Origin: Candidatus Hodarchaeota archaeon
GTDB lineage: Archaea; Asgardarchaeota; Heimdallarchaeia; Hodarchaeales; Hodarchaeaceae
Assembly (NCBI GenBank): GCA_029856365.1
Contig: JAHQWW010000030.1
Location: 1-31,968 of the forward strand
Direction of reading: 5' to 3'
Length of the DNA stretch: 31,968 nucleotides
Shown here: positions 1 through 11,045 of the stretch, in pieces
Numbering within the stretch: position 1 is the first letter of the stretch
Layout of the letters: every line of letters begins with the position of its first letter
Notes under the pieces: generated by a model
What the model saw: only the letters and a program-made list of their open reading frames with translations
Told to the model about the DNA's origin: nothing
Databases searched by the model: none
Translations under genes and position numbers: made by a program

Positions 1-48
1 AAACAGCTGATGGTAAAAAGATTCTTGTTTTAACCAAGATGAAAAAAA

Positions 49-984
49 ATGTCACAATTTGTCACAGAAGAAGTTGAGGATCAAGTTCGTAGTTCGCGAA
101 TCGCTAAACATGTTGTTATGCGATCCATCTTAAAGGAACACATGAAAGATGCAGATGAAGGCAGTTTAAACAATCTTTTAATGAGAATATACCAACTGTT
201 TTATGATTCTTCCATGGTTGATGCTTTATTTTCGGATATCCAAGATAGAGAAAAGCAAAAGCAAGAGCTTCAAGAGATGGATCTCGAAGATATTGCTAGT
301 ATGGCGTTTGGAGAAGTGGCTGGAGAAGCAGGAACTGCAGAATCAGACTTCACTTCATTGTTAGAGGCCGATGATACCACTTTTGAAAGTATGGTGGCCA
401 TATCGGAAACTATATCTTACGAAGAAGTTTATAATGTGATGAAAAAAGCCAATATTGATATAATAATTGATTTTTTTTCAGCACTTCAAGGATCAACATC
501 CAGTCTTTGGGAAACAACGTTTGAATTTACTGAGGTTGATAAAAAGCGTATCATGGATGTTTTTTCACTTTTTGTAGAAAAACAAATTGAAGGCCCATCA
601 TTAAATGAGGAGAATTTGGGTAACAATCTCGGATCTTCTGTGCTTAATATTGATGTGGCAAATAAACCGTTCTCCATTTTCATTTACACTCCTGCCAAAT
701 GGTTAGATAAAGGACAAATGCATCGGTTGTCCCTAGGACTTATGATTCAAGATAAATGGGCAAAATATGTTTCGATTATTTCTACTCACATATCCAAAAA
801 GCTTAATGAGATCACAGAGTCAATCTTGGGAACTGCAGGTGAAGATTTATCTAATATTCCATTTCGCCTTGTTGATTTATCAATTCGTAAAAGGTTAAAA
901 GCTCAGATAAAAGGATTAGCTGAATATGTCGCTCGATGTTCTCTAGCTTTAGATCAAATTCAATCTACAACCCATGATCTTTAA
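49..984 (+). CDS. Hypothetical protein: acidic N-terminal half plus putative longin/uDENN-like domain
   Basis: 311-aa ORF. From about residue 135 the pattern is IIIDFF-x4-G / SSLWET / helix EVDKKRIMDVFSLF / SSVLNI / FSIFIYT / KGQMHRLSLGLMI / long helix. This fits the beta-beta-alpha-beta-beta-beta-alpha longin order. Domain call by eye. Confidence 0.5.
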   Translation: MSQFVTEEVEDQVRSSRIAKHVVMRSILKEHMKDADEGSLNNLLMRIYQLFYDSSMVDALFSDIQDREKQKQELQEMDLEDIASMAFGEVAGEAGTAESDFTSLLEADDTTFESMVAISETISYEEVYNVMKKANIDIIIDFFSALQGSTSSLWETTFEFTEVDKKRIMDVFSLFVEKQIEGPSLNEENLGNNLGSSVLNIDVANKPFSIFIYTPAKWLDKGQMHRLSLGLMIQDKWAKYVSIISTHISKKLNEITESILGTAGEDLSNIPFRLVDLSIRKRLKAQIKGLAEYVARCSLALDQIQSTTHDL

Positions 985-1054
985 TCATATAGAAAATTAA
1001 TTAATATATTTGAAAAGATGTATAAATGTCTGATCAGACGGGAAATGATCATTA

Positions 1055-4000
1055 ATGTCTTCAGATAACTTAAACTTAATTTCGGAAATTCTCACTAAAC
1101 TTAATAAGCTTATCTCAAAACCTGTTTGCGCACCAGAGCTTACCAAGTACTCTAAACTTGTTCAACAATATTCTCAGACGACAAAGGAAATTGATAAGGC
1201 AGGCAGACTTGCAAAAAGGGGATTAAAAAGGCAGCAGGAACAACTTCAATCTGACCTTACAGAATCTGAGGAAGTGTGCTTACAATGTATTTTTAACTCT
1301 TTGGTCAGAGATCTGAAACTAATTCTTGAAAATCAAACCCAAGCACTCTCAGCAGTTGCACCACAAGCTGCAAGCTTACTACGGAATATTAGATTTCCTC
1401 TAACTTCAGAAATTGGAGCAATAATAACCTTCATTGAAGATGTAGAGAAAGCACAAGCCGACACAACAATCCAAACAAGAAATCTATGTAAAATGCTTCT
1501 TAATGATAATCAATCTAAAATTAAAATTTATAAGAATCTCATTTCTCTGGATGAGAGATCATATCAGCAAACAAAAATCTTAACCGAGGATGCACTTGAT
1601 TCTCTTTCAGTTTCAGACCTATTGAAATCATATTCAACTCTTAAAGAGGAGCAAAAACTAATTAATCAGCAACTAGCCACATCCACTGACACTGTTCAAC
1701 AAAAACTTTTACAGTCAGTTCACGAACTCATTTATTCCATACAAGAGGGAGCTAAAAGAGAGATCATACCTGATATCGAGGAGTATCGAGAAGTTAAGGA
1801 ACTCTCGTCACAAGTTGAAGTAGCCAATACAATTGATGAGCTAAATCTACTGAACACTAAAGTCTCGCAGTATATTGTAAAATATAGTACTGCTATAAAA
1901 TCAGAGATAGCAAGGGCAAGAACAACTGGAAATAATCTGATTACACAAATCCGTGGTCTGTTTCCAACGCTTTCAAAAAAATGGATGCCCTCTCCTCCTG
2001 ATGTATTACCTTCAAAGGTTTCCATAACTGACTTGATGAGCTATTTTGATGAGATAAATAAGTGGGAGAAAAATATTCTCGATGTAATAAAGAAAATTTC
2101 TTCTGTTGATGAGTTGAAACAAGTTACTGAGGCTTCTCTTCAAGAGGGGCTCAGTATCCCGAATACACTTATAGCCAATGTGACAGAAACAGCCAATCGA
2201 ATCCAAGAAGAAACAGTTACTATCAAAGAAGCTTTTAAGAGACTGGAGAATTTTCATGTTTATTATACCGAGTTTCTTAGTATTCTACGCGATAACATCA
2301 GCAATAATCTAAATTTAGATGTTACTGACTCTGACTCTAGTGCATTAATATCACTTAAACCTCCTATCATTAATATCCAGTCTGATAGTCCTTCGGAGCT
2401 ATTAAGCTATATTCGAGCTGTTAATATTTGGAAACGCAAGTTGGTTAATGTTTTACAAGAAACTAGACACGATATAAATGATACTATCGCTAATGTCAAT
2501 CAATTAGAAAGAAAAGGGATTAATAATTTTCCTCCTGATTTTCAAGCTGAACTCACGACCCTTTATGAAAAAATGGCATTAGAAACTGAAGTCCATACTC
2601 TTTTACTGTACCGGCGTTCTTATGACCGCTTATATAAACAATTTGTAACATTAACAGCTGCATATATCAAAGACTTTCTGAAAAACGTCACAGTGCTCCA
2701 ATTGCTAGAATCAGAGTCAGATGTTCCTCGTCCTCCTTTTGTTGAGGATGCAGGAGAGCTAGACCTCTCTGAATTACTTAATAGAATTGAATCAGTTGAG
2801 GAATGGAAACGAAAAGTTCTCACTTTCCTCAAGAACAAAATTGAAGGGCTGAGTTTCCCATTGATACCTGGAGAGGTTCCAGTTGATTTGAGGAAAGAAA
2901 AAAACACGCTTCTAGCTCAATTGACAGGCACTGCTGCTGCCCGAAATTTTGTTTCATCAATTAAAAGCTATTTCACTTTCATGAAAACCATGTCTTCTTC
3001 TAAGAATTTGATGATCGAAGAAACATTAAAACAGATTGAAATAACAGAAAAAATCGATCAATCTTCGATGCAATACTTTAAAGAGGTAATTGGCCAAGCT
3101 CCCATCTTTGAGATCCCTAAAGACCTTGAGACACTGGATTACTCTGAGCTTTTAGAATTATGGTTTCGTCTAGATACCTATAATAGAAAAAAAACCGAAC
3201 TTGTCCAACTTAAATGTAGGGAACTCCTATCAAGTTGGTTGAAACAATACAAATCTCTACCAGCACATTATTCAAATATCTTCAATCCCTTGTTTTTAGT
3301 GCTAGATCAAGCCTTATCTGAGCTAAATCAGTCTTTAGATACAGAAGAAACATTAACGAAGTATGAATTCTTTTTGAATGGTGCAACCAGTAAAGCACAA
3401 GAAGGCCTTGAAAAATTAAAAGCTTTTTTCTACAATAAGGTGACAGTTAGTTTACCCCGAATCACAGAGGTAATAGGAGAGGTTTCTCCAGAAATTCTCA
3501 AAGTCTATAGCTTTTTAGAGAGTACAATTTCAACTAAAGATCAGACACTTGAATCAGTGCATCGTCTAATAGTTGAAACTATCCATGATTATGAATATAT
3601 TTTGCTAGCGAAACTTATGGAACTGTTAAGCATCTCAAGTAAAAACTTACTCATGCAGATTGCCGAACTTCAAACCTGTGGAATTAATCTTCAAAGCTTA
3701 GTAGGAGAACAGATCGAAGTCTTCACGCAATTAGTTCAAGCAGATTCCTCTGATATGATGTCTGTAGAAATGATTACTCAATCCTTTGTTGAACTAGATA
3801 AGATATTAAAAAATGAATCACTTCAGAAATCATTATTTGAGATTATTGAAAAAAATAATACCATTGCTGGTAGAATATTGGATTTTGTTCAAGCATTAGG
3901 TTGGAAAAACGCTCAACATATATTAATGCCTTATGTTGTTGCAATAAAGCAAGCTAAAGGAACAATACAATTTTGGTCCTTTGATCTTATCGCAAAGGCT

Positions 4001-4480
4001 ACAATTGAAGTCATAAAAAGATCAAAGGAACTGATTCAAGCTATCCGACAATTAGAACAAGAGAATTATGATGTTTATCTTTCTGAATTAGAATCTGATC
4101 CAGCAATACCCTATTATAAAAGTATTAAGGAAGTATTTAAATTTCAGCTGGATGAATGCTCAAAAAATATTTTTCCACTTAACGAATTATACGCTACAAG
4201 AGAACAAATGAAATTATCGGAAGATCTAAATGAAATCTATGGCTTATTAACTACAATTTCAAAATTAAAAACACAATGGAAGCAAGATTGGTTGCCAGTG
4301 ATTTCAAAATGGCACAGTGTTCTCTTTTTATTTATTAGTGATTATACGCCAACGACGGATCGTGAAGAAAAGATAACTTATCTTGCGAATGCAAAACGAG
4401 AAATTGAAGAAGCATATAATCATCAGCCGATGATGCAGTATTTATCCTCAGCTGTAGAACTTTACATAACAAGTAGATAA
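1055..4480 (+). CDS. Large all-alpha helical repeat protein, unknown function
   Basis: 1141-aa ORF rich in L/E/K/I, with no NTPase motif or TM segment seen. An internal repeat P(P)-x9-11-(S/T)(D/E)L(L/M)...W/Y starts at residues ~314, 436, 560 and 683. It ends 12 bp before the tubulin-like gene. Confidence 0.75.
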   Translation: MSSDNLNLISEILTKLNKLISKPVCAPELTKYSKLVQQYSQTTKEIDKAGRLAKRGLKRQQEQLQSDLTESEEVCLQCIFNSLVRDLKLILENQTQALSAVAPQAASLLRNIRFPLTSEIGAIITFIEDVEKAQADTTIQTRNLCKMLLNDNQSKIKIYKNLISLDERSYQQTKILTEDALDSLSVSDLLKSYSTLKEEQKLINQQLATSTDTVQQKLLQSVHELIYSIQEGAKREIIPDIEEYREVKELSSQVEVANTIDELNLLNTKVSQYIVKYSTAIKSEIARARTTGNNLITQIRGLFPTLSKKWMPSPPDVLPSKVSITDLMSYFDEINKWEKNILDVIKKISSVDELKQVTEASLQEGLSIPNTLIANVTETANRIQEETVTIKEAFKRLENFHVYYTEFLSILRDNISNNLNLDVTDSDSSALISLKPPIINIQSDSPSELLSYIRAVNIWKRKLVNVLQETRHDINDTIANVNQLERKGINNFPPDFQAELTTLYEKMALETEVHTLLLYRRSYDRLYKQFVTLTAAYIKDFLKNVTVLQLLESESDVPRPPFVEDAGELDLSELLNRIESVEEWKRKVLTFLKNKIEGLSFPLIPGEVPVDLRKEKNTLLAQLTGTAAARNFVSSIKSYFTFMKTMSSSKNLMIEETLKQIEITEKIDQSSMQYFKEVIGQAPIFEIPKDLETLDYSELLELWFRLDTYNRKKTELVQLKCRELLSSWLKQYKSLPAHYSNIFNPLFLVLDQALSELNQSLDTEETLTKYEFFLNGATSKAQEGLEKLKAFFYNKVTVSLPRITEVIGEVSPEILKVYSFLESTISTKDQTLESVHRLIVETIHDYEYILLAKLMELLSISSKNLLMQIAELQTCGINLQSLVGEQIEVFTQLVQADSSDMMSVEMITQSFVELDKILKNESLQKSLFEIIEKNNTIAGRILDFVQALGWKNAQHILMPYVVAIKQAKGTIQFWSFDLIAKATIEVIKRSKELIQAIRQLEQENYDVYLSELESDPAIPYYKSIKEVFKFQLDECSKNIFPLNELYATREQMKLSEDLNEIYGLLTTISKLKTQWKQDWLPVISKWHSVLFLFISDYTPTTDREEKITYLANAKREIEEAYNHQPMMQYLSSAVELYITSR

Positions 4481-4492
4481 GGGGTTCTTATT

Positions 4493-5827
4493 ATGGCTAA
4501 AGCAAGTAGAGAAGCAGATGTATTCATAATTGGTATTGGAGAATGTGGGTCAAATCTAGTGGGTTCCTACATTCAACAAAGTAAAAAACAAACAGGAGCA
4601 TCTAGGATCCGTGAATATCTTATAATGAACACCGATAAAACAGACCTTACTAAAACCCGTACTGAGTATTCAATTCCTAATCAAAACACACTGATGTATT
4701 CCGATGAAGAAATAGGTGTGGGGGGTAAGTTTAAAGAGGGTAATGATCTTGTCTTAAAGAATCAGGATCTCATCCTTAACCAATTAAAAGGATTAGGGTA
4801 TGAGGGGGTCTCAGGTTTCATAATTTTGACTAGTCTCGGTGGTGGTACTGGTTGTGGTGGTACTCCAGCACTTGTAGAACTTCTTCATAAGCGATTTTCA
4901 GAAGAAAGACGGATATTCATTTATGTATTTGGTGTTTTACCATTTGAGAATCAATCTTCGGAAGCAATAAACTCTATCTGGTCTTTATCGACCTTATTAA
5001 GAAATCAATTAGAACCAAACAAGGGGCCAAATTTAATATTTTTATTATCGAATAAAACTATGTTAAAAAGAGTAATGGGTTGGAGGGAGGGGCGTGCAAG
5101 TGCTTTATTGGACCAATCCTTAGGAATTGATTCTGCTGACTTAGCATCTAGTGATGAGCAGCAACGAATGGAAACAGAGTTAGAATTTACTCAGTTAGTT
5201 AATCCGTTAGCTTTACAAACTATAGAAGCAATTCTTTCCCCAAGTATTCAGGAACCAGGTAAAAAAGTTATGCCAACAACAGATCTAGCTGATTATTCCA
5301 GAAGATTAGATCCAGTTGTAGTTCCCTGTTATTTTGAGGATATGTACTTTCTACCTGAATATGGTAGAATGGAAAAACAAATGGCCTTAGCAGCAAGATA
5401 TGCTGTTAACCACTGTTCATTAACAGATATTGAAACAAAACCCATGGCAGGCTCTGTTTATTCCATTTTTACTGGATATAAAGATATAGCTAAACTAGAA
5501 TATTCAGCTCACCTAAAAAAGATTCTTGCGCCATATCTCGTAAAAGGTGGATCGATCCAACCGTCATTTGTAGCTTACGACGATCCAACTATAGATAGGT
5601 CTTCTATTCTCTTACTTTTTGGTTTACCTCTTATTCCAGAACTACGTGATGTATACAATGATGCCACTAATTTGATAGCATATCATGATGACTCAAAATC
5701 AACGATTAAACGTGGTTGGTTTGAAAGATCGAAGGGAGTAAATCGGGATCAACTACAAATTGCTATGGATGATATTATGAATCTTTTTGGCAAGTATATG
5801 GCCATTACTGAAGATGATAACAAGTAG
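4493..5827 (+). CDS. Tubulin/FtsZ-superfamily GTPase (divergent, with tubulin-like C-terminal helices)
   Basis: T1 GIGECGSN, T2 MNTDKTDL, T3 GVGGKFKEG, signature SLGGGTGCGG, T5 VLPF...EAINSIWSL, T6 LLSNKTM, T7 TTDLADY. C-terminal WFERSKGVNRDQLQIAMDDIMNLFGKY. Confidence 0.93.
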   Translation: MAKASREADVFIIGIGECGSNLVGSYIQQSKKQTGASRIREYLIMNTDKTDLTKTRTEYSIPNQNTLMYSDEEIGVGGKFKEGNDLVLKNQDLILNQLKGLGYEGVSGFIILTSLGGGTGCGGTPALVELLHKRFSEERRIFIYVFGVLPFENQSSEAINSIWSLSTLLRNQLEPNKGPNLIFLLSNKTMLKRVMGWREGRASALLDQSLGIDSADLASSDEQQRMETELEFTQLVNPLALQTIEAILSPSIQEPGKKVMPTTDLADYSRRLDPVVVPCYFEDMYFLPEYGRMEKQMALAARYAVNHCSLTDIETKPMAGSVYSIFTGYKDIAKLEYSAHLKKILAPYLVKGGSIQPSFVAYDDPTIDRSSILLLFGLPLIPELRDVYNDATNLIAYHDDSKSTIKRGWFERSKGVNRDQLQIAMDDIMNLFGKYMAITEDDNK

Positions 5828-5880
5828 AAATTATACCTATATGATTATTCTCCCCCTAATTATAAGAAATTATTTTGTAA

Positions 5881-8088
5881 TTAATCTCTTTCTAGAAGTT
5901 CTAAGTAACTTCTTAGTTTCTCCGATGTCTCATCTTCCTGTTTTTCTAGAACAGGTTTTAATTCATATTTAGGTTGGATTTCTGCTGATTTTGCTGGGAT
6001 TGCCGTTTCTGTTGATTCAATAAGGTTTCTTATAGATGCATGAATAATGCGACCTGCAAAATCAATGGCTCCCTCTGACTCAACAGGTATTTGCATTGCT
6101 TCTTTTAATAGCTTTCTTATCTGATTGACAGTAATGGAATCTACAACATTTGTCTGGCCTATGGGAAAACCTCGTTGGATGAAACTTAATAAAAACCCTT
6201 TTTTTGCTTTTTCTACTGTAAATGCAACATTTTCACTATCAGGGATTAAAATGTGATTTCCTTCGAGTTTAATTTCCATTGGAATAATAAAATCTATTGT
6301 TTCTGCTAGATATCCCTCCTCTTTTCGTACCTTTCTGGTCGTTACCTCTGATGTAGAGCTTAGATTTTTTTCACGAATTTGCTGGATCGCCTCGTGAATT
6401 ATTCTCGCAGCAAAATTCATAGAGCCGATTCCATCTTCAAAAATACCCAATCCTGTCATATTCATTTCGTAAGCTAAGAGGTAAAGGATTTCTTCATTGG
6501 TGATCTTAACTGGAACAATTGAACTACCTATAAGTTCTCGTTGGCCAGCAGGACCTTGGAGGTGGAAAGTTAGGCGAGCATTTAAACCTTCTGGTTTAAG
6601 AATTTCGACATTAAAGCCCATTCCTCGAGTATCGGGTAAGGTAATAATCCCTTCAACGCTTTCAATTTCAATAGGTATTTCTATTTGCGCAAGTTCAGGG
6701 CGCTTTTCTATGATTTTTTTCTTCTTTTTCTCCTTCTTTTTTGGAGTTAAATAGTCCTTTACAATATCACTGATAATCATTTTGGGTTTTTCAGTAGCTA
6801 ATACAAGGCACTTGACTATATCTGTTTCTTGTAATTGCCCTTTCAAGTAAACATGGAATAATTCTAATAATTGCTTCCTATTTATTATACCATATTTCTT
6901 TGGTCCTTGTGATTTTTTAATGAAGGGTAAATATTTGAGGAGGACATCAGTTACAAGGGGTATTGGAATCCCTGATGTAGCTGCCATTTCAAATACATCG
7001 GCATATCCAGTATTAACAATCTCTGTAGCTTCATTAACGCCTATTCGGAAAAAATCAACCAGATGGCTGATTTGGGGATTAATTTCTATCGTTTCCTGAG
7101 GTTCAGGCACAATTTGGGAGCTTATAGATGGAAGAGGTTCTTCCTCTACTGATGTTGAATAGGGATAGGTTTTTGATTGCGGAGAAGGGGGTATTTGTCC
7201 CATTGTTTTTATTGGAGTTAAGATTGTTTCAGTAGTAGATTCTTCTGTTGCAGCATTTCCAAGAAATACAGAATTCTGAGATAATTGAGTTCTGGTGTGA
7301 TTTGCTCCTGTGGCCTTTGTTTTTATAGCTTGCTGCATCAAGATTTGTAATTTCTCTAATACTACTTGATCACCAGCTATTTTGGGCGTAATAGATTCTT
7401 GTTTTTGACTTATTTCCACTTCAAGTGTTGGTTCGCGTATTGTCATACCTTTTTCATGATATTCTTCAATTTTACCAATTATCCGAAAATCAACAAACTC
7501 ACTTTTTGCCAATTGTGGAATGGTTAATTCAAAAATGCGACCAAAACTGTCTATAACTGTTTCTGGTTTGTAAATTGTTGTTCTGAAAAACCTAAGTTTA
7601 TGGGGATATTCTAACTGAAATTGTTCCTTTAATTGTTCATGAATGCTTTCATAGTTAGGCGAATCTCTCACTAAATCGTTTTTATGTAGAAAAACGAAGA
7701 CTTCGGCTTCAGGAGAAAAAATTGCGAGCTTTTCAAGACAAGCTTTGAAATATTGTATTGCATTATTCCTAGAAGTCTTATTTGCTACATCAATTAGAAA
7801 AATAAAAGTCTTTACGCTACTGAATACAAATGGACTAAACCCACTTAAAAAGCGTTTTAAAAATATTTTCTGTCCACCAAGATCTACTATCGTGATCGGT
7901 GTATCATGGATCGTGAGTGACAACCGTTCGTAATTGATTGTAGCTGAGAGACTGTCAACATCTTCTGTCTGTTGTTTAAGAAAGAAAATACGTTTGACGG
8001 CAGTCTTACCAGCTTCACTTAGACCAGCAATTAAGATTTTATAACCCAGTCGTTCAGTTATTTCTGAGTCAGATACCCATTCAGACAT
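5881..8088 (-). CDS. Rag/Gtr-type small GTPase domain fused to a long C-terminal region with a duplicated domain
   Basis: G1 GLSEAGKT, G2 ATINY, G3 DLGGQ, G4 HKND (His-type G4 as in Rag GTPases), G5 TTIY. These are followed by a P/S/T/Q-rich linker, a helical region, a poly-Lys tract and two ~95-105-aa repeats. Confidence 0.85.
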   Translation of the reverse strand: MSEWVSDSEITERLGYKILIAGLSEAGKTAVKRIFFLKQQTEDVDSLSATINYERLSLTIHDTPITIVDLGGQKIFLKRFLSGFSPFVFSSVKTFIFLIDVANKTSRNNAIQYFKACLEKLAIFSPEAEVFVFLHKNDLVRDSPNYESIHEQLKEQFQLEYPHKLRFFRTTIYKPETVIDSFGRIFELTIPQLAKSEFVDFRIIGKIEEYHEKGMTIREPTLEVEISQKQESITPKIAGDQVVLEKLQILMQQAIKTKATGANHTRTQLSQNSVFLGNAATEESTTETILTPIKTMGQIPPSPQSKTYPYSTSVEEEPLPSISSQIVPEPQETIEINPQISHLVDFFRIGVNEATEIVNTGYADVFEMAATSGIPIPLVTDVLLKYLPFIKKSQGPKKYGIINRKQLLELFHVYLKGQLQETDIVKCLVLATEKPKMIISDIVKDYLTPKKKEKKKKKIIEKRPELAQIEIPIEIESVEGIITLPDTRGMGFNVEILKPEGLNARLTFHLQGPAGQRELIGSSIVPVKITNEEILYLLAYEMNMTGLGIFEDGIGSMNFAARIIHEAIQQIREKNLSSTSEVTTRKVRKEEGYLAETIDFIIPMEIKLEGNHILIPDSENVAFTVEKAKKGFLLSFIQRGFPIGQTNVVDSITVNQIRKLLKEAMQIPVESEGAIDFAGRIIHASIRNLIESTETAIPAKSAEIQPKYELKPVLEKQEDETSEKLRSYLELLERD

Positions 8089-8525: not shown

Positions 8526-9428
8526 TTGGCAATTACAACGCTAGCTCAAAAAGTTCTATTCATGGGACTTGGAGCAAGCGGTAAAAGTAGTATAAGGTCA
8601 GTGGTTTTCGAAGGAAAGTCACCAGAGGATGTTAAAGATTATTCTGCAACAATAAATTATACTCGCTCAACTAAAAATATTATTGATAGTGCATTTCAAA
8701 TTTTTGATTGTGGTGGGCAAGAGAGTTTCATTTCTGTTTTTGTTGGTGAACAAGCGGAATTTATATTCAGTGATGTTACAATTCTGGTCTGGGTGGTTGA
8801 TGTGAGTAATTTTGATCAAGTTTCAACAAGTAAATTTTACTTCGATCACGCTGTCTCAAGGTTAGCTGAATACTCACCTGGCGCAATAATATTCTGCCTC
8901 TTTCATAAACTCGATCTCTTACTACCTGATATGCGTGATCAAGTTGTTGAAACTATGAAACAATATTTTCTTCCAGTTCACGAAATAGAAATTTATTATC
9001 GTGCAACCTCAATCTTTGATCAATCAATATACCTAACTGTAGGTGAAATGATACAAAAATTGATTCTTCAGAGTACAAAAGCAAAAACTGTATCTGAAGC
9101 AATACAGGAATTCATCCAACAACATGCAGAACTATCAGGAATTGCAATATATACTGATGATGGCTTACCTGTTTTTGAAGAAGGGGAAGAAGCCGAAAGA
9201 ATCATCCTTCCAGCTAATTTGTGGTTAACTAATTATGACAGAATTAAAACTGAGTTTGAGACTGTTTCAACCTTTAAAACAACTTTAGAAACAGATGATT
9301 ATGTGCTTGTTTTTCAAAGAATTAAAAGTGAACTTCTTCTTACTGGAATTGCCAAGAAAGTCGCCCCTCTACAATATGTTCTAGTTAAAATGGAGCAAAT
9401 TGCCACAATCGTTAGTGGTCTCTTATAA
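8526..9428 (+). CDS. RagA/Gtr1-like GTPase with C-terminal roadblock domain
   Basis: KVLFMGLGASGKSSIRSVVF, ATINY, FDCGGQ, HKLD and TSIFD match eukaryotic RagA/Gtr1 motifs. C-terminal LSGIAIYTDDGLPV...YVLVFQRIKSELLLTGIA has the roadblock pattern. TTG start preceded by GAGG. Confidence 0.9.
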   Translation: MAITTLAQKVLFMGLGASGKSSIRSVVFEGKSPEDVKDYSATINYTRSTKNIIDSAFQIFDCGGQESFISVFVGEQAEFIFSDVTILVWVVDVSNFDQVSTSKFYFDHAVSRLAEYSPGAIIFCLFHKLDLLLPDMRDQVVETMKQYFLPVHEIEIYYRATSIFDQSIYLTVGEMIQKLILQSTKAKTVSEAIQEFIQQHAELSGIAIYTDDGLPVFEEGEEAERIILPANLWLTNYDRIKTEFETVSTFKTTLETDDYVLVFQRIKSELLLTGIAKKVAPLQYVLVKMEQIATIVSGLL

Positions 9429-9550: not shown

Positions 9551-10603
9551 TCATTTTTCTGTTTCTTTTTGAGAGATAAAGAATCCATTTTCAATTTTTG
9601 AATTCTGAATAAGACCTGAACTTATAGCACTCACAAGGAATTCTTCAATCAATTCTACGGAGATACCAGTTTGTGTGGATAATTCATATAAATTCAAAGG
9701 AAGACCTTCTTCTATGGATTGTAAAATCTGGGTAATTAACTGATGTCTTTTAGTCGTTATGTGAAAATCAAAAAAACTGTCAAGGTCTTCAAATGTTAAC
9801 TGATCGGAGAGATGAATACGATATTGAAATCCTATTTCTGGTTGAAGTACAAAACCTGATTTTGCCAAATGATGCTGAATTGTTATTGAATCTGTAATAA
9901 TTTCTTGTTTATAGATTGCACCTTTTGGAATTTTCCTTTTATAATCGTTTATTAGTTGAAGAAGCTCGATTTTTTTACTCGGAGAGGATTTTTCGCGTAA
10001 TAAAACTCTGATATGCTTATTCGGATTATCTATTAACAAGATAGGAGAATTTGAAGGGATCAAAGGTAAATCTAAAAATGATTTAATTTCATTATTATCA
10101 TTTATATAGTATGCTTCTATACCTGTTTCGATGATTTGAATTTTTTCGCTTATTTTTTGAGGAATGTTTTCTTTTTCGAGGTCATCATCAGTCTTAATAT
10201 GATACATTTGAAGTGTTCTACGTATCATTCGCTTTATGACCCCAATATACTTCATTAATGCAGTAGATCGAGTAATTATCCAAAAAACGACAATTCTTCC
10301 AAAACGAGCTATACGTGTATCAGAAGTAATTTTAGCTTTTAAGGTAAAAATAAAACCTATCGTTAAATATGGTTCCTTATGTGTTGGCATAGGTCCATAG
10401 GAGCGAATTTCACCATGATTCAGGGGAATATCGGAACCTATTGCTGTTAATGTCTTAATTGCTAGGTTAAATGCTTCATCTTCTGATAATGGTGAAGAAT
10501 TATGAATATTGAAAGGCCCGTCATCTTTGAATACTGTAATTATTAAACCATCAATTAACGTACTTCCTCTTGAAGCACTGTTTTCGTGCATAAATAAGAC
10601 CAA
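9551..10603 (-). CDS. Multidomain protein: longin/uDENN-like N-terminus, possible gelsolin-like middle, C-terminal PCI-type winged helix
   Basis: N-terminal GLIITVFKDDGP...YGPMP...IGFIFTL...DTRIARFGRIVVFWII. Middle ILLIDNPNKHIRVLLREKSSPSKKIELLQLINDY. C-terminal LNLYELSTQTGISVELIEEFLVSAISSGLIQNSKIENG. Confidence 0.55.
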   Translation of the reverse strand: MVLFMHENSASRGSTLIDGLIITVFKDDGPFNIHNSSPLSEDEAFNLAIKTLTAIGSDIPLNHGEIRSYGPMPTHKEPYLTIGFIFTLKAKITSDTRIARFGRIVVFWIITRSTALMKYIGVIKRMIRRTLQMYHIKTDDDLEKENIPQKISEKIQIIETGIEAYYINDNNEIKSFLDLPLIPSNSPILLIDNPNKHIRVLLREKSSPSKKIELLQLINDYKRKIPKGAIYKQEIITDSITIQHHLAKSGFVLQPEIGFQYRIHLSDQLTFEDLDSFFDFHITTKRHQLITQILQSIEEGLPLNLYELSTQTGISVELIEEFLVSAISSGLIQNSKIENGFFISQKETEK

Positions 10604-10736
10604 CTATTTTATGAGTTCCATTTCTATTACTACATCACAAATAATAAATTTATCCTAGATAAAAACTAGCCTTCCATATTTCTTTGATATGATAACGATT
10701 TTATTCAATGGCGAGGAATAAAAAAAGAATTTCATT

Positions 10737-11045
10737 CTAGAGCTCATCAAAAGGATTCGTTGTTATATAACCATGGCCTTTAATATATTGCCCACCATCA
10801 AGAAGATGCATTCCAAAAGGAAATAGGCCAATTCGGGCGTTCTTCGGGATAATGGTGTCTTGATAAGCCAGTTTCCCATTTATGAAGCAATCTCCACATT
10901 CTTTAATGCTTAAACCTAAACGTTTAAGTAAATTTTGAAATTGCTCATTTTTCTCATTAGGGAGATTAATTACTGTATCTTCAGCTAAAGAAGCATCTGG
11001 TTTGAATTTTTTCTTAAAGATGCCGTAAAGATAAATCTTTAACAA
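10737..11045 (-). CDS. MoaD/ThiS-like ubiquitin-fold protein with C-terminal extension
   Basis: KIYLYG...LLKRLGL...FING...IGLFP is the beta-grasp pattern. The GG is internal (LLDGG) and is followed by 17 aa. Confidence 0.75.
   Translation of the reverse strand: MLKIYLYGIFKKKFKPDASLAEDTVINLPNEKNEQFQNLLKRLGLSIKECGDCFINGKLAYQDTIIPKNARIGLFPFGMHLLDGGQYIKGHGYITTNPFDEL

What the first reader, a model, noticed from the sequence alone, without database searches (positions are those of the whole stretch)
49..5827. Candidate undescribed Asgard cytoskeletal module: tubulin-like GTPase co-encoded with a giant helical-repeat protein and a longin-like protein
Seen: three co-oriented genes with 70-bp and 12-bp gaps, ending in a tubulin-superfamily gene. 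None of the usual archaeal ftsZ neighbours (sepF, secE/spt5) and no second tubulin paralog are adjacent. Known: eukaryotic tubulins work with helical-bundle repeat partners (gamma-tubulin complex proteins, PRC1/MAP65), and longin domains link GTPases to membranes. Inference: the 1141-aa protein is a dedicated scaffold, nucleator or cross-linker for this filament, and the 311-aa protein is an adaptor.
Basis: partly seen in the sequence, partly recalled or inferred. Interest (0 to 1): 0.88.

Follow-up and report, generated by a model that had tools for sequence, protein, structure and literature searches.

The report
Asgard tubulin-like operon with giant partner

Summary
Three co-oriented ORFs lie at 49-984, 1055-4480 and 4493-5827, with gaps of 70 and 12 bp. 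The third is a tubulin/FtsZ-superfamily GTPase.

It belongs to the "Asg.Tub" CetZ-like group, named in 2023 from four sequences. No partners were defined for it then.

New here: in a sample of 300 Asgard genomes the tubulin-like gene (115), the giant protein (114) and a third ~350-aa protein (112) occur in the same nine families. They form a fixed operon, giant then tubulin-like then third gene.

The window carries a Hodarchaeales-specific duplicate, cassette A. It lacks the third gene. A longin-fold protein found only in Hodarchaeales sits upstream, and Rag-like GTPase genes always sit downstream.

The giant protein is all-helical with at least four tandem ~125-aa repeats. It has no detectable relative outside Asgard.

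A controlled complex prediction supports binding of the giant's C-terminal end, its most conserved part, to a lateral face of the tubulin-like protein (0.66 against 0.00 for controls).

Polymerisation, function and co-transcription are untested. The longin fold is confirmed, but its adaptor role is not shown.

The scan's first readers had already noted the ancestral cassette on another contig of this genome.

The parts
49..984 (+). P0001, 311 aa: disordered or helical N-terminal part, then a longin-fold domain at about residues 125-302 (nt 421-954). The family is found only in Hodarchaeales and always lies directly upstream of giant A.
   Evidence: ORF. No Pfam or NCBIfam hit. AF2 model pLDDT 63, with the domain at about 75-85. 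VIA Z 10.7 to the Lst4 longin domain (141 of 144 aligned, rmsd 3.5), and nearly all of the top 45 hits are longin domains. Foldseek prob 1.0. Distribution.
985..1054 (+). 61-70 bp spacer. It has a conserved AT-rich block (ATTT[G/T]AAAA) about 35-40 bp before the giant's ATG and a GG-rich stretch near -10. This could be an internal archaeal promoter plus a ribosome-binding site.
   Evidence: Sequence. Alignment of four orthologous spacers. The promoter reading is inference only.
1055..4480 (+). P0002, 1141 aa: giant all-alpha protein ('giant A'), an Asgard-only family. It has an N-terminal helical domain, at least 4-5 tandem ~125-aa helical repeats and a conserved C-terminal domain.
   Evidence: ORF. 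AF2 pLDDT 82, all helices. Only 26 representatives among 1.84 billion proteins. No Pfam hit.
1592..3499 (+). Tandem repeat region of P0002, residues about 180-815. The unit is about 125 aa. The last four repeats begin with the motif [DE]L[LM]x(8-9)[WY]x[RK][KN], at residues 326, 448, 573 and 698.
   Evidence: hhalign between alignment segments: 180-310 vs 310-430 96.5%, 310-430 vs 430-560 98%, 430-560 vs 560-685 90.5%, with weaker matches to 685-815.
4112..4465 (+). C-terminal region of P0002, residues about 1020-1137, predicted to contact the tubulin-like protein. It contains the family's near-invariant W1086, H1087, I1117 and Y1121.
   Evidence: complex prediction interface. Invariant columns. 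Interface residues are more conserved than the rest of residues 600-1141 (0.53 vs 0.37), and the last ~60 residues are the most conserved window.
4493..5827 (+). P0003, 444 aa: tubulin/FtsZ-superfamily GTPase of the CetZ-like 'Asg.Tub' group, the divergent A paralog. The GTPase domain covers residues 10-170 (nt 4520-5002). G-box is GGGTGCGG. The T7-like loop is PTTDLADY at residues 260-267 (nt 5270-5293).
   Evidence: Pfam PF00091 72.6 bits. Closest solved sequences are CetZ. Invariant motifs in a 21-sequence alignment. Family identity with published Asg.Tub. Tree.
4481..4492 (+). 12-bp junction between giant A and the tubulin-like gene, with GGGG 8-9 nt before the ATG. The spacing is 11-12 bp in the orthologues. 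This is consistent with one transcript and coupled translation.
   Evidence: Sequence. ORF spacing in orthologous loci. Co-transcription is inferred, not shown.
5881..8088 (-). P0004, 735 aa: Gtr1/RagA-like small GTPase with a long C-terminal extension, convergent on the cassette. It is a conserved neighbour, not shown to be part of the module.
   Evidence: Pfam PF04670 102 bits. A Rag-like GTPase gene flanks cassette A in all 7 other loci inspected: the P0004 orthologue in 5 and the 300-aa Rag orthologue in 2.

Best explanation
**What it is**
- Window 1055-5827 encodes a Hodarchaeales-specific duplicate ('cassette A') of an Asgard gene module.
- The ancestral module has three genes in fixed order:
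  1. a giant all-helical repeat protein;
  2. a CetZ-like tubulin-superfamily GTPase (Asg.Tub);
  3. a ~350-aa helical protein.

**Proposed mechanism**
- The GTPase keeps its nucleotide-binding loops and an acidic T7-type loop. It most likely forms GTP-dependent protofilaments, as CetZ and FtsZ do.
- The giant protein docks through its conserved C-terminal helical domain. It is predicted to bind a lateral surface of the GTPase's C-terminal domain: the loop and helix after strand S7, where tubulin has its M-loop, plus residues 202-210.
- That surface lies away from the nucleotide pocket and the T7 loop. The partner could therefore decorate a polymer rather than cap it.
- The rod of ~125-aa helical repeats and the N-terminal domain would then act as a spacer, tether or cross-linker to another structure.

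**What is different in cassette A**
- The third subunit is missing.
- A longin-fold protein (P0001) is encoded just upstream, and Rag-like GTPase genes always lie just downstream.
- This may mean the duplicated filament system has been coupled to small-GTPase regulation.

**Shown and inferred**
- Shown: gene order, co-occurrence, family membership, internal repeats, the longin fold, and a passing in-silico binding test.
- Inferred: polymerisation, decoration of the filament, the tether or cross-linker role, and any link to the Rag-like GTPases.
For: **Family and catalytic motifs**
- P0003 matches PF00091 at 72.6 bits.
- Its nearest solved sequences are CetZ (E 1e-10 for the single sequence, 2.7e-12 for the profile). 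OdinTubulin, BtubA/B and tubulins follow at 1e-4 to 1e-5.
- G-box GGGTGCGGTPA and T7-like PTTDLADY are kept, with D264 and D267 invariant in 21 sequences.
- The LC-3 member of my alignment begins with the same residues as a published Asg.Tub sequence.

**Co-occurrence in the same 300 Asgard genomes**
- Tubulin-like 115, giant 114, third gene 112.
- All three occur in the same nine families. None was found in 0 of 68, 0 of 29, 0 of 11 and 0 of 11 genomes of four other families.

**Gene order outside the window's genus**
- The giant lies directly upstream on the same strand in 76 of 77 genomes, median 87 bp between matches. The 77th has the two matches on different contigs.
- The third gene lies directly downstream in 85 of 85, median 42 bp; in one genome (G073) it lies 8.2 kb away.
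- The same order was seen in 14 loci read in full.

**Cassette A**
- Found in 8 genomes of the genus. Spacing is 11-12 bp between giant and tubulin-like gene and 61-70 bp between P0001 and the giant.
- The A clade (100/100 support) nests inside the Hodarchaeales clade (100/98) on a long stem.

**Predicted binding**
- P0003 with giant residues 600-1141: ipSAE 0.63, 0.66 and 0.67. The best of 3 controls scored 0.00.
- This mark was reached by 58 of 80 solved complexes and 2 of 110 mismatched pairs in the tool's calibration. My own alignments were used, so those counts hold only roughly.
- The runs share at least 66% of their contacts, and the partner's pLDDT is at least 79.
- The interface includes the giant's near-invariant W1086, H1087 and Y1121. 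It falls in the giant's most conserved stretch.
- No nucleotide-loop or T7 residue appears among the confident contacts.

**The giant protein**
- All-helical, mean pLDDT 82.
- Tandem ~125-aa repeats.
- Asgard-only: 26 representatives among 1.84 billion proteins.

**P0001 and its surroundings**
- Longin fold.
- Rag-like GTPase genes flank cassette A in all 7 other loci.
Against: - No experiment or transcript data exist. No RNA run holds the stretch, so co-transcription is untested.
- Polymerisation is assumed from motifs alone. The C-terminal domain of P0003 has no significant sequence match to any solved tubulin, FtsZ or CetZ C-domain.
- On the tubulin-like side the predicted interface is less conserved than the rest of the protein (0.51 vs 0.69). 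Only L206, G291, Q296 and Y303 are conserved there.
- The lateral-face assignment comes from the order of secondary-structure elements that I read from the sequence, not from a model.
- Only the C-terminal half of the giant was tested for binding.
- The spacer before the giant has a conserved AT-rich, promoter-like block. P0001 may therefore be transcribed separately.
- P0001's closest structural matches are the longin domains of Rag, Rab and Arf regulators. That fits the neighbouring Rag-like GTPases at least as well as it fits the tubulin-like protein.
Confidence: 0.6

Rival explanations
1. The giant protein is not a filament scaffold. It is an assembly or sequestering factor for the tubulin-like GTPase, holding unpolymerised subunits or controlling their folding and turnover. 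Tubulin cofactors, stathmin and MciZ-type inhibitors work this way for tubulin and FtsZ.
For: The strict one-to-one gene pairing and 12-bp junction suggest a stoichiometric complex. The predicted contact is with a single subunit. The contact sits where tubulin makes lateral contacts, so binding could block bundling or sheet formation.
Against: A protein of 900-1170 aa with 4-5 tandem rod-like repeats and a separate conserved N-terminal domain is more than a sequestering factor needs. The predicted interface leaves both longitudinal surfaces free, the nucleotide loops and T7.
Confidence: 0.15
2. P0001 does not belong to the tubulin-like module. It is a longin-domain regulator (GAP or GEF platform) of the neighbouring Rag-like GTPases, and cassette A merely sits inside a Rag/longin gene island.
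For: Its best structural matches are the Lst4/FLCN, SMCR8, Mon1-Ccz1 and TRAPP longin domains and an Asgard Roadblock-Longin protein. Two Gtr1/RagA-like GTPase genes lie within 3.6 kb. A Rag-like GTPase gene flanks cassette A in all 7 other loci. P0001 is absent from the ancestral cassette B and from every other lineage that has the module. A promoter-like block separates it from the giant gene.
Against: P0001 is found only where cassette A is found. It is always directly upstream on the same strand at 61-70 bp. The cassette separates it from the Rag genes, which are on the opposite strand.
Confidence: 0.35
3. The module is a DNA-segregation or mobile-element system of the TubZ/PhuZ type, not a cellular cytoskeleton.
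For: Divergent tubulin-family GTPases in small operons with helical partner proteins are typical of plasmid and phage partition systems. A few genomes have kilobase insertions inside the operon: G002, G020 and G073.
Against: The ancestral cassette is single-copy and chromosomal. Its flanks are housekeeping genes that are conserved within the genus, namely CDC48, a MoCF-domain protein and a nucleotidyl transferase. The tubulin-like tree groups by host family. About 50% identity is kept across classes. No DNA-binding, integrase or replication domain is present in or next to the three genes.
Confidence: 0.05
4. Asg.Tub is a cell-division protein that stands in for the missing second FtsZ, with the giant protein and the third protein as its ring anchors.
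For: Genomes of the window's genus show only one strong FtsZ-type PF00091 match besides Asg.Tub. This holds in a 99%-complete and a closed genome. The Hermodarchaeota-type family shows the same. The third protein has a conserved N-terminal hydrophobic helix.
Against: The Thorarchaeota-type family has two FtsZ-type matches as well as Asg.Tub. Other Heimdallarchaeia families have one or two FtsZ matches and no Asg.Tub. So there is no complementary pattern. The hydrophobic helix scores only 1.2-2.1 on a 19-residue Kyte-Doolittle scan, so it is not a consistent membrane anchor.
Confidence: 0.1

Closest known systems
Asg.Tub, the CetZ-like non-canonical tubulin-superfamily group of Asgard archaea (Santana-Molina et al. 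2023, PMC9871819)
   Same: It is the same protein family. The LC-3 sequence OLS26264.1 used to define Asg.Tub matches, over its printed start, the LC-3 protein in my alignment. The paper also noted unknown neighbouring genes with coiled-coil regions.
   Different: The paper had four sequences. It called the distribution sparse, defined no partner and considered lateral transfer. Here the family is in 115 of 300 sampled Asgard genomes, in a fixed three-gene operon. The window's copy is a divergent, Hodarchaeales-specific paralog.
CetZ of Euryarchaeota (Haloferax CetZ1/2, PDB 4b45 and 4b46; Methanosaeta 3zid)
   Same: CetZ proteins are the nearest solved sequences (E 1e-10 to 3e-12). They share the GTPase domain and nucleotide loops. 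CetZ is a non-division cytoskeletal GTPase that controls cell shape (established knowledge; PMC9856176).
   Different: Only the N-terminal domain aligns. The published analyses place the Asgard proteins outside canonical CetZ. CetZ genes are not known to pair with a giant repeat protein; the paper reports that the genome contexts are unrelated.
BtubA/B with BtubC of Prosthecobacter
   Same: A tubulin homologue is encoded in one operon with a helical-repeat partner that binds and stabilises the polymer. This rests on my own knowledge, with Deng et al. 2017 as cited in PMC9871819.
   Different: BtubC is a small TPR protein and BtubA/B are close relatives of eukaryotic tubulin. Here the partner is 900-1170 aa, has its own ~125-aa repeat and has no TPR or other Pfam match. 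The GTPase is CetZ-like.
FtsZ with EzrA (spectrin-like repeat regulator of the Z ring in Firmicutes)
   Same: A tubulin-superfamily filament works with a long all-helical protein built of tandem helical-bundle repeats about 100-125 aa long. An EzrA cluster appeared among weak shape matches (TM 0.34 by the target).
   Different: The match is far below significance and there is no PF06160 hit. EzrA has an N-terminal membrane anchor, whereas the giant has no hydrophobic segment. This is an analogy only.
Eukaryotic MAP65/PRC1 and gamma-tubulin complex proteins (GCPs)
   Different: No Pfam match at E<=1. PRC1 and a GCP-containing entry appear only as insignificant Foldseek rows (E 0.3-0.5, TM at most 0.22). 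Similarity is not shown.
Longin domains of small-GTPase regulators (Lst4/FLCN, SMCR8-C9orf72, Mon1-Ccz1, TRAPP) and the Lokiarchaeota Roadblock-Longin protein (PDB 8yqg)
   Same: P0001 residues about 125-302 have the same fold. VIA gives Z 9.4-10.7 with 133-153 residues aligned. Foldseek gives prob 1.0.
   Different: There is no sequence-level match to any longin, roadblock or DENN family. The model confidence is moderate (pLDDT 63). The protein sits next to a tubulin-like cassette, and no GTPase partner has been shown.

Membership tests
Tubulin/FtsZ superfamily | N-terminal GTPase domain (Pfam PF00091) above the curated cut-off | tested here: met
   72.6 bits against a cut-off of 33, residues 10-170. 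The paralog on contig 9 scores 64.5 bits.
Tubulin/FtsZ superfamily | Glycine-rich signature loop GGGTG(S/T)G | tested here: met
   GGGTGCGG at residues 116-123, with Cys in place of Ser/Thr. G116-G118, G120, C121, G122 and G123 are invariant in 21 sequences.
Tubulin/FtsZ superfamily | T7 loop with acidic residue(s) that complete the GTPase site of the next subunit | tested here: inconclusive
   PTTDLADY, with D264 and D267 invariant, resembles the tubulin T7 pattern as I recall it. The assignment rests on position and motif, not on a structural alignment. No solved C-domain aligned significantly.
Tubulin/FtsZ superfamily | C-terminal domain recognisable as Tubulin_C or FtsZ_C | tested here: not met
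   No Pfam C-domain match at E<=1. The published Asg.Tub C-terminal HMM also matched no other family. The fold was not modelled here.
Asg.Tub group (PMC9871819) | Clusters with the four defining sequences (LC-3, B3-JM-08, Thor SMTZ1-83, Thor AB-25) | tested here: met
   The LC-3 protein is a hit at 53% identity and 486 bits. Its sequence matches the excerpts of the published Asg.Tub sequence printed. The tree places the window's clade inside the Hodarchaeales clade together with it.
Canonical CetZ | Membership of the CetZ clade as bounded by the Thermococcales CetZs | tested here: inconclusive
   CetZ proteins are the best solved matches, but over the N-domain only. The literature places the Asgard proteins among non-canonical or CetZ-like proteins. 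I built no tree with CetZ references.
Eukaryote-type tubulin (Atub/OdinTubulin/BtubAB/alpha-beta) | Full-length sequence similarity to tubulins | tested here: not met
   E values are only 1e-4 to 2e-5 over about 70-130 residues of the N-domain.
Longin domain (P0001) | beta-beta-alpha-beta-beta-beta-alpha fold that superposes on solved longin domains | tested here: met
   DSSP order is E137-144, E148-154, H162-181, E198-203, E206-213, E225-234, H235-260. VIA Z 10.7, rmsd 3.5, 141 of 144 residues of Lst4 aligned, and nearly all of the top 45 hits are longin domains. Caveat: model pLDDT is 63.
Longin domain (P0001) | Sequence-family match (Pfam or NCBIfam longin, roadblock or DENN models) | tested here: not met
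   No such hit at E<=1.
Spectrin repeat / EzrA / MAP65-PRC1 / GCP (giant protein) | Sequence-profile match to PF00435, PF06160, PF03999 or the GCP domains | tested here: not met
   hmmscan of P0002 at E<=1 returned only two chance-level unrelated hits.
Spectrin repeat / EzrA / MAP65-PRC1 / GCP (giant protein) | Structural superposition on the family's fold | tested here: inconclusive
   Whole-model searches gave no Foldseek hit at E<=0.001. VIA Z was at most 10.4, on short helical hairpins only, below the noise level for helical proteins. EzrA gave TM 0.34. Single domains were not folded separately.

The most novel reading that the evidence does not exclude
Asg.Tub, the giant repeat protein and the third protein together form a previously unrecognised, Asgard-specific cytoskeletal system. 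It would be a tubulin-superfamily filament with its own dedicated 'MAP-like' rod protein. It has been inherited across Thor-, Hermod-, Sif- and Borrarchaeia-type lineages and Hodarchaeales. In Hodarchaeales a duplicate has been rewired to a longin protein and Rag-like GTPases. That would be a prokaryotic precedent for small-GTPase control of a tubulin-family cytoskeleton.
Probability: 0.3. Interest if true: 0.85.

Novelty: new variant of a known kind. Interest (0 to 1): 0.7.

Why it matters
Hodarchaeales are currently placed as the closest known archaeal relatives of eukaryotes. How a tubulin cytoskeleton acquired its accessory proteins and its GTPase-based regulation is an open question in eukaryogenesis.

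Work so far has focused on the rare eukaryote-like Asgard tubulins, OdinTubulin and AtubAB. The module described here is far more widespread, in about 38% of the sampled Asgard genomes. It comes with two dedicated partner proteins of unknown families, and nobody has characterised it.

It gives a concrete set of two to three proteins to test by co-expression, polymerisation assays and EM, and by cryo-ET in the Asgard strains now in culture. The Hodarchaeales duplicate sits next to a longin protein and Rag-like GTPases, which offers a specific hypothesis about coupling filaments to small GTPases.

If the proteins do not polymerise or bind, the result is still a well-defined conserved operon of unknown function.

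Tried and rejected
- **RNA evidence.** No RNA holder was listed for window 1-6000. DNA holders are marine-sediment, seawater and mangrove metagenomes.
- **Fold of the giant protein.** All results below are leads at most. The domains were not folded alone, so a known fold is not excluded.
  - Foldseek against PDB gave no hit at E<=0.001. The top rows were dynein tail, WAVE/Nap1, vinculin, PRC1 and Exo70, at E 0.02-0.6 and TM 0.22 or less.
  - VIA wide and VIA second look found only short helical hairpins or bundles, Z at most 10.4.
  - The Atlas shape search found only the family's own Thorarchaeota cluster, plus weak rows including EzrA.
  - The Atlas feature search returned only its own family.
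- **P0001 in the Atlas.** No usable hit.
- **Is P0001 a displaced, diverged copy of the ancestral third gene?** BLASTP found nothing and hhalign gave probability 0.1%. Rejected at this sensitivity.
- **Is the third protein a membrane anchor?** It has a conserved N-terminal hydrophobic helix, but the Kyte-Doolittle 19-residue maxima are only 1.2-2.1. Inconclusive.
- **Does Asg.Tub replace FtsZ2?** PF00091 counts per genome show no complementary pattern. Rejected as a general rule.
- **A fourth conserved gene?** The genes beyond the third differ between lineages: a coiled-coil protein in Hodarchaeales, CoA-ligase-type or FMN-dehydrogenase genes elsewhere. Rejected.
- **Literature.** Searches for any description of the operon found only the 2023 Asg.Tub paper.

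Full report
**1. The observation**

The window has three co-oriented ORFs:
- 49-984, 311 aa, P0001
- 1055-4480, 1141 aa, P0002
- 4493-5827, 444 aa, P0003

The gaps are 70 and 12 bp. The window starts at the end of its contig, so only 48 bp lie upstream of P0001.

P0003 matches the Pfam Tubulin/FtsZ GTPase domain at 72.6 bits, cut-off 33. P0001 and P0002 match nothing.

The next gene, 5881-8088 on the minus strand, is a Gtr1/RagA-like GTPase. A second Rag-like GTPase lies at 8526-9428. Beyond these are BtpA, a radical SAM enzyme and transporters. No sepF, secE or spt5 and no second tubulin gene is adjacent.

**2. Organism and family of the GTPase**

Near-identical proteins in public data carry the labels Candidatus Hodarchaeales or Hodarchaeota, including Ca. 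Hodarchaeum mangrovi.

The closest solved sequences to P0003 are the CetZ proteins 4b45, 4b46 and 3zid:
- E 1e-10 with the single sequence
- E 2.7e-12 with a 21-sequence profile

OdinTubulin, BtubA/B and eukaryotic tubulins follow at 1e-4 to 2e-5. In every case only the N-terminal domain aligns.

The family alignment keeps the following:
- a T1-type loop, GxGECGSN
- the signature loop, GGGTGCGGTPA
- a T7-like PTTDLADY with two invariant aspartates, D264 and D267

Santana-Molina et al. 2023 (PMC9871819) defined a CetZ-like group 'Asg.Tub' from four sequences: Heimdall LC-3, B3-JM-08 and two Thorarchaeales. They noted that its position between CetZ and tubulin is unstable. They also noted that the neighbouring genes are unknown proteins with coiled-coil regions. 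The LC-3 sequence printed in their supplement matches the LC-3 protein among my hits over the stretches shown. So P0003 belongs to Asg.Tub. No other paper in the library uses the name or describes the operon.

**3. A conserved three-gene module**

*In the window's own order.* Among 41 related genomes, both P0003 and P0002 have matches in 21 of 21 other genomes of the genus and in 2 of 2 of the sister family. Neither has a match in 17 genomes of three other families of the class.

Two paralogous cassettes exist:

| Cassette | Where found | Tubulin-like identity to P0003 | Giant identity to P0002 |
|---|---|---|---|
| A (the window's) | 8 genomes of the genus | 82-95% | 60-86% |
| B | essentially all genomes of the genus, including contig 9 of this genome | 55-57% | 24% |

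*Across the phylum.* The same even sample of 300 Asgard genomes was searched three times:
- tubulin-like gene: 115 genomes
- giant, queried with the B copy: 114 genomes
- third gene, a ~350-aa protein directly downstream in cassette B: 112 genomes

All three occur in the same nine families. None was found in four other well-sampled families (0 of 68, 0 of 29, 0 of 11, 0 of 11).

*Gene order.* From the listed coordinates outside the genus:
- The giant lies immediately upstream on the same strand in 76 of 77 genomes, with a median of 87 bp between matches. The exception has the two matches on different contigs.
- The third gene lies immediately downstream in 85 of 85, with a median of 42 bp. In one genome (G073) it lies 8.2 kb away.

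Fourteen loci from nine families that I read in full show the same order:

| Position | Protein | Size |
|---|---|---|
| 1 | giant | 870-1030 aa (about 1170 aa in Hodarchaeales cassette B) |
| 2 | tubulin-like | 440-500 aa |
| 3 | third protein | 290-380 aa |

*Named lineages.* Record titles name Hodarchaeota, Thorarchaeota, Hermodarchaeota, Sifarchaeum and Borrarchaeum.

*Limits of the module.* Genes beyond the three differ between lineages. The giant family has only 26 representatives among 1.84 billion clustered proteins.

**4. Cassette A is a derived duplicate**

In a maximum-likelihood tree the A clade has 100/100 support. It nests inside the Hodarchaeales clade (100/98) on a long stem of 0.85.

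Cassette A differs from cassette B in three ways:
- It has no third gene. The third gene is single-copy in every genome of the genus where it was found and lies with cassette B.
- P0001 lies 61-70 bp upstream in every case that can be assessed. The P0001 family has 44 clusters, all labelled Hodarchaeales-type or unnamed. It shows no detectable homology to the third gene: hhalign probability 0.1%.
- A Rag-like GTPase gene converges on the cassette in all 7 other loci inspected.

**5. The giant protein**

AlphaFold2 with a 15-sequence alignment gives an all-helical model with mean pLDDT 82. It is confident for residues 1-420 and 570-1141.

Profile comparison of alignment segments shows true tandem repeats of about 125 aa:

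| Segment pair | hhalign probability |
|---|---|
| 180-310 vs 310-430 | 96.5% |
| 310-430 vs 430-560 | 98% |
| 180-310 vs 430-560 | 94.8% |
| 430-560 vs 560-685 | 90.5% |
| 310-430 vs 685-815 | about 70% |

- The last four repeats start with the motif [DE]L[LM]x8-9[WY]x[RK][KN].
- The ~900-aa versions in other classes are shorter by about two repeats.
- The most conserved part of the whole protein is the last ~60 residues. Near-invariant residues there are W1086, H1087, I1117, Y1121 and Y1129.
- No solved or predicted structure outside the family matched significantly. The weak EzrA row is an analogy worth remembering, not a finding.

**6. Predicted binding**

I used the one complex job on P0003 (21-row alignment) with P0002 residues 600-1141 (15-row alignment). 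Results:
- ipSAE was 0.63, 0.66 and 0.67 in three runs. The three controls all scored 0.00.
- The tool's mark was reached by 58 of 80 solved complexes and 2 of 110 mismatched pairs. Those counts hold only roughly because my own alignments were used.
- The runs share at least 66% of their contacts, and the partner's pLDDT is at least 79.
- No similar complex is known to have been solved, so a pass from memory is unlikely.

The confident contacts are:
- giant: 1020-1027, 1085-1096, 1116-1137
- GTPase: 202-210, 285-307, 368

On the giant's side these residues are more conserved than the rest of the C-terminal half (0.53 vs 0.37), and they include W1086, H1087 and Y1121. On the GTPase side they are less conserved than the rest (0.51 vs 0.69), with L206, G291, Q296 and Y303 as conserved anchors.

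I read the order of elements after the T7 loop as H8, S7, loop, H9. On that reading, residues 285-307 correspond to the S7-H9 loop and H9, where tubulin has its M-loop. This mapping is inference from the sequence, not from a model. No signature-loop or T7 residue is among the confident contacts. That would be compatible with binding to a polymer.

**7. P0001**

The AlphaFold2 model is moderate, mean pLDDT 63. Residues about 109-310 are better, at about 75-85. They show beta-beta-alpha-beta-beta-beta-alpha, with helices before and after.

VIA-align against 48,161 chains gives these top matches, and longin domains fill nearly all of the top 45 rows:

| Match | Z | Detail |
|---|---|---|
| Lst4 longin domain | 10.7 | 141 of 144 residues aligned, rmsd 3.5 |
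| TRAPP subunit | 10.4 | |
| SMCR8 | 10.1 | |
| FLCN | 9.7 | |
| Lokiarchaeota Roadblock-Longin protein | 9.4 | |

Foldseek agrees, with prob 1.0 and E about 1e-3.

Whether P0001 serves the tubulin-like cassette or the adjacent Rag-like GTPases cannot be decided. Strict adjacency to giant A favours the first. The type of longin, the conserved Rag neighbours and a conserved promoter-like AT-rich block in the spacer favour the second.

**8. Rivals considered**

- *Sequestering or assembly factor.* This remains possible for the giant.
- *Plasmid- or phage-type segregation system.* This is unlikely. The locus is chromosomal, it is single-copy for cassette B, it has conserved housekeeping flanks within the genus, and its tree follows host families.
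- *Replacement of FtsZ2.* This is not supported as a rule. Thorarchaeota-type genomes have two FtsZ-type matches plus Asg.Tub. Hodarchaeales have one plus Asg.Tub. Lokiarchaeia-type genomes have two and no Asg.Tub.

**9. Verdict**

The sequence feature is real, and the module idea is supported for the giant-plus-GTPase pair. The GTPase family was already named in the literature.

New here are:
- the fixed three-gene operon and its breadth across Asgard lineages
- the repeat architecture of the giant partner
- the predicted docking through its conserved C-terminus
- the Hodarchaeales duplicate with a longin protein next to Rag-like GTPases

Function remains inferred. First readers of this scan had already noted cassette B on another contig of this genome, the longin-like pattern in ORF1 and the Rag-type GTPases. 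I reached cassette B independently through genome searches.

Noticed in passing
G000 contig 9, about 37187-43218 (locus L024:3162-10219, minus strand): This is the ancestral cassette B of the same genome: giant (1172 aa), tubulin-like (454 aa), third gene (361 aa), then a 284-aa helical protein with a weak apolipoprotein-like match. It is flanked by CDC48, a MoCF-domain gene and a nucleotidyl transferase.
   Followed up: yes
window 8526-9428 (+) and 9551-10603 (-): A second Gtr1/RagA-like GTPase (137 bits) lies head-to-head with the 735-aa one. A convergent 350-aa protein next to it has no Pfam match. Together with P0001 this makes a Rag-like/longin-rich neighbourhood.
   Followed up: partly
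window 5881-8088 (-), P0004 residues 336-462: The long C-terminal extension of the Rag-like GTPase has a weak NCBIfam match to the tail region of GatE (E 1.5e-5) and a poly-lysine tract. Its meaning is unknown.
   Followed up: no
G170:C52:9085-9705 and 10421-11038: Two adjacent, very strong PF00091 matches (197 and 191 bits, ORFs of 440 and 436 aa) lie in a genome of another Heimdallarchaeia family. This looks like an AtubA/AtubB-type eukaryote-like tubulin pair.
   Followed up: no
G002:C96 (89784-98870), G020:C230 (11440-26102), G073:C69 (11292-21918): In three genomes the otherwise tight operon is interrupted. About 4.3 kb and 9.9 kb lie between giant B and the tubulin-like gene, and about 8.2 kb lies between the tubulin-like gene and the third gene. 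These may be insertions.
   Followed up: no
Genus of the window (e.g. G007, 99% complete; G009, closed chromosome): These genomes show only one strong FtsZ-type PF00091 match besides Asg.Tub. Thorarchaeota-type genomes show two.
   Followed up: partly
Third-gene family (alignment A4), N-terminal residues about 10-35 (53-75 in Hodarchaeales): A conserved hydrophobic helix of the type LLLIxTLNSTLIHFLL is present. Its Kyte-Doolittle 19-residue maximum is 1.2-2.1. It could be a membrane-interacting or a buried helix.
   Followed up: partly
P0003 residues about 194-235 (window about 5072-5197): A variable, acidic insertion of 30-55 residues follows the conserved LLSN(K/R)TML motif and differs in length between lineages. 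Residues 202-210 at its start are part of the predicted partner interface.
   Followed up: partly
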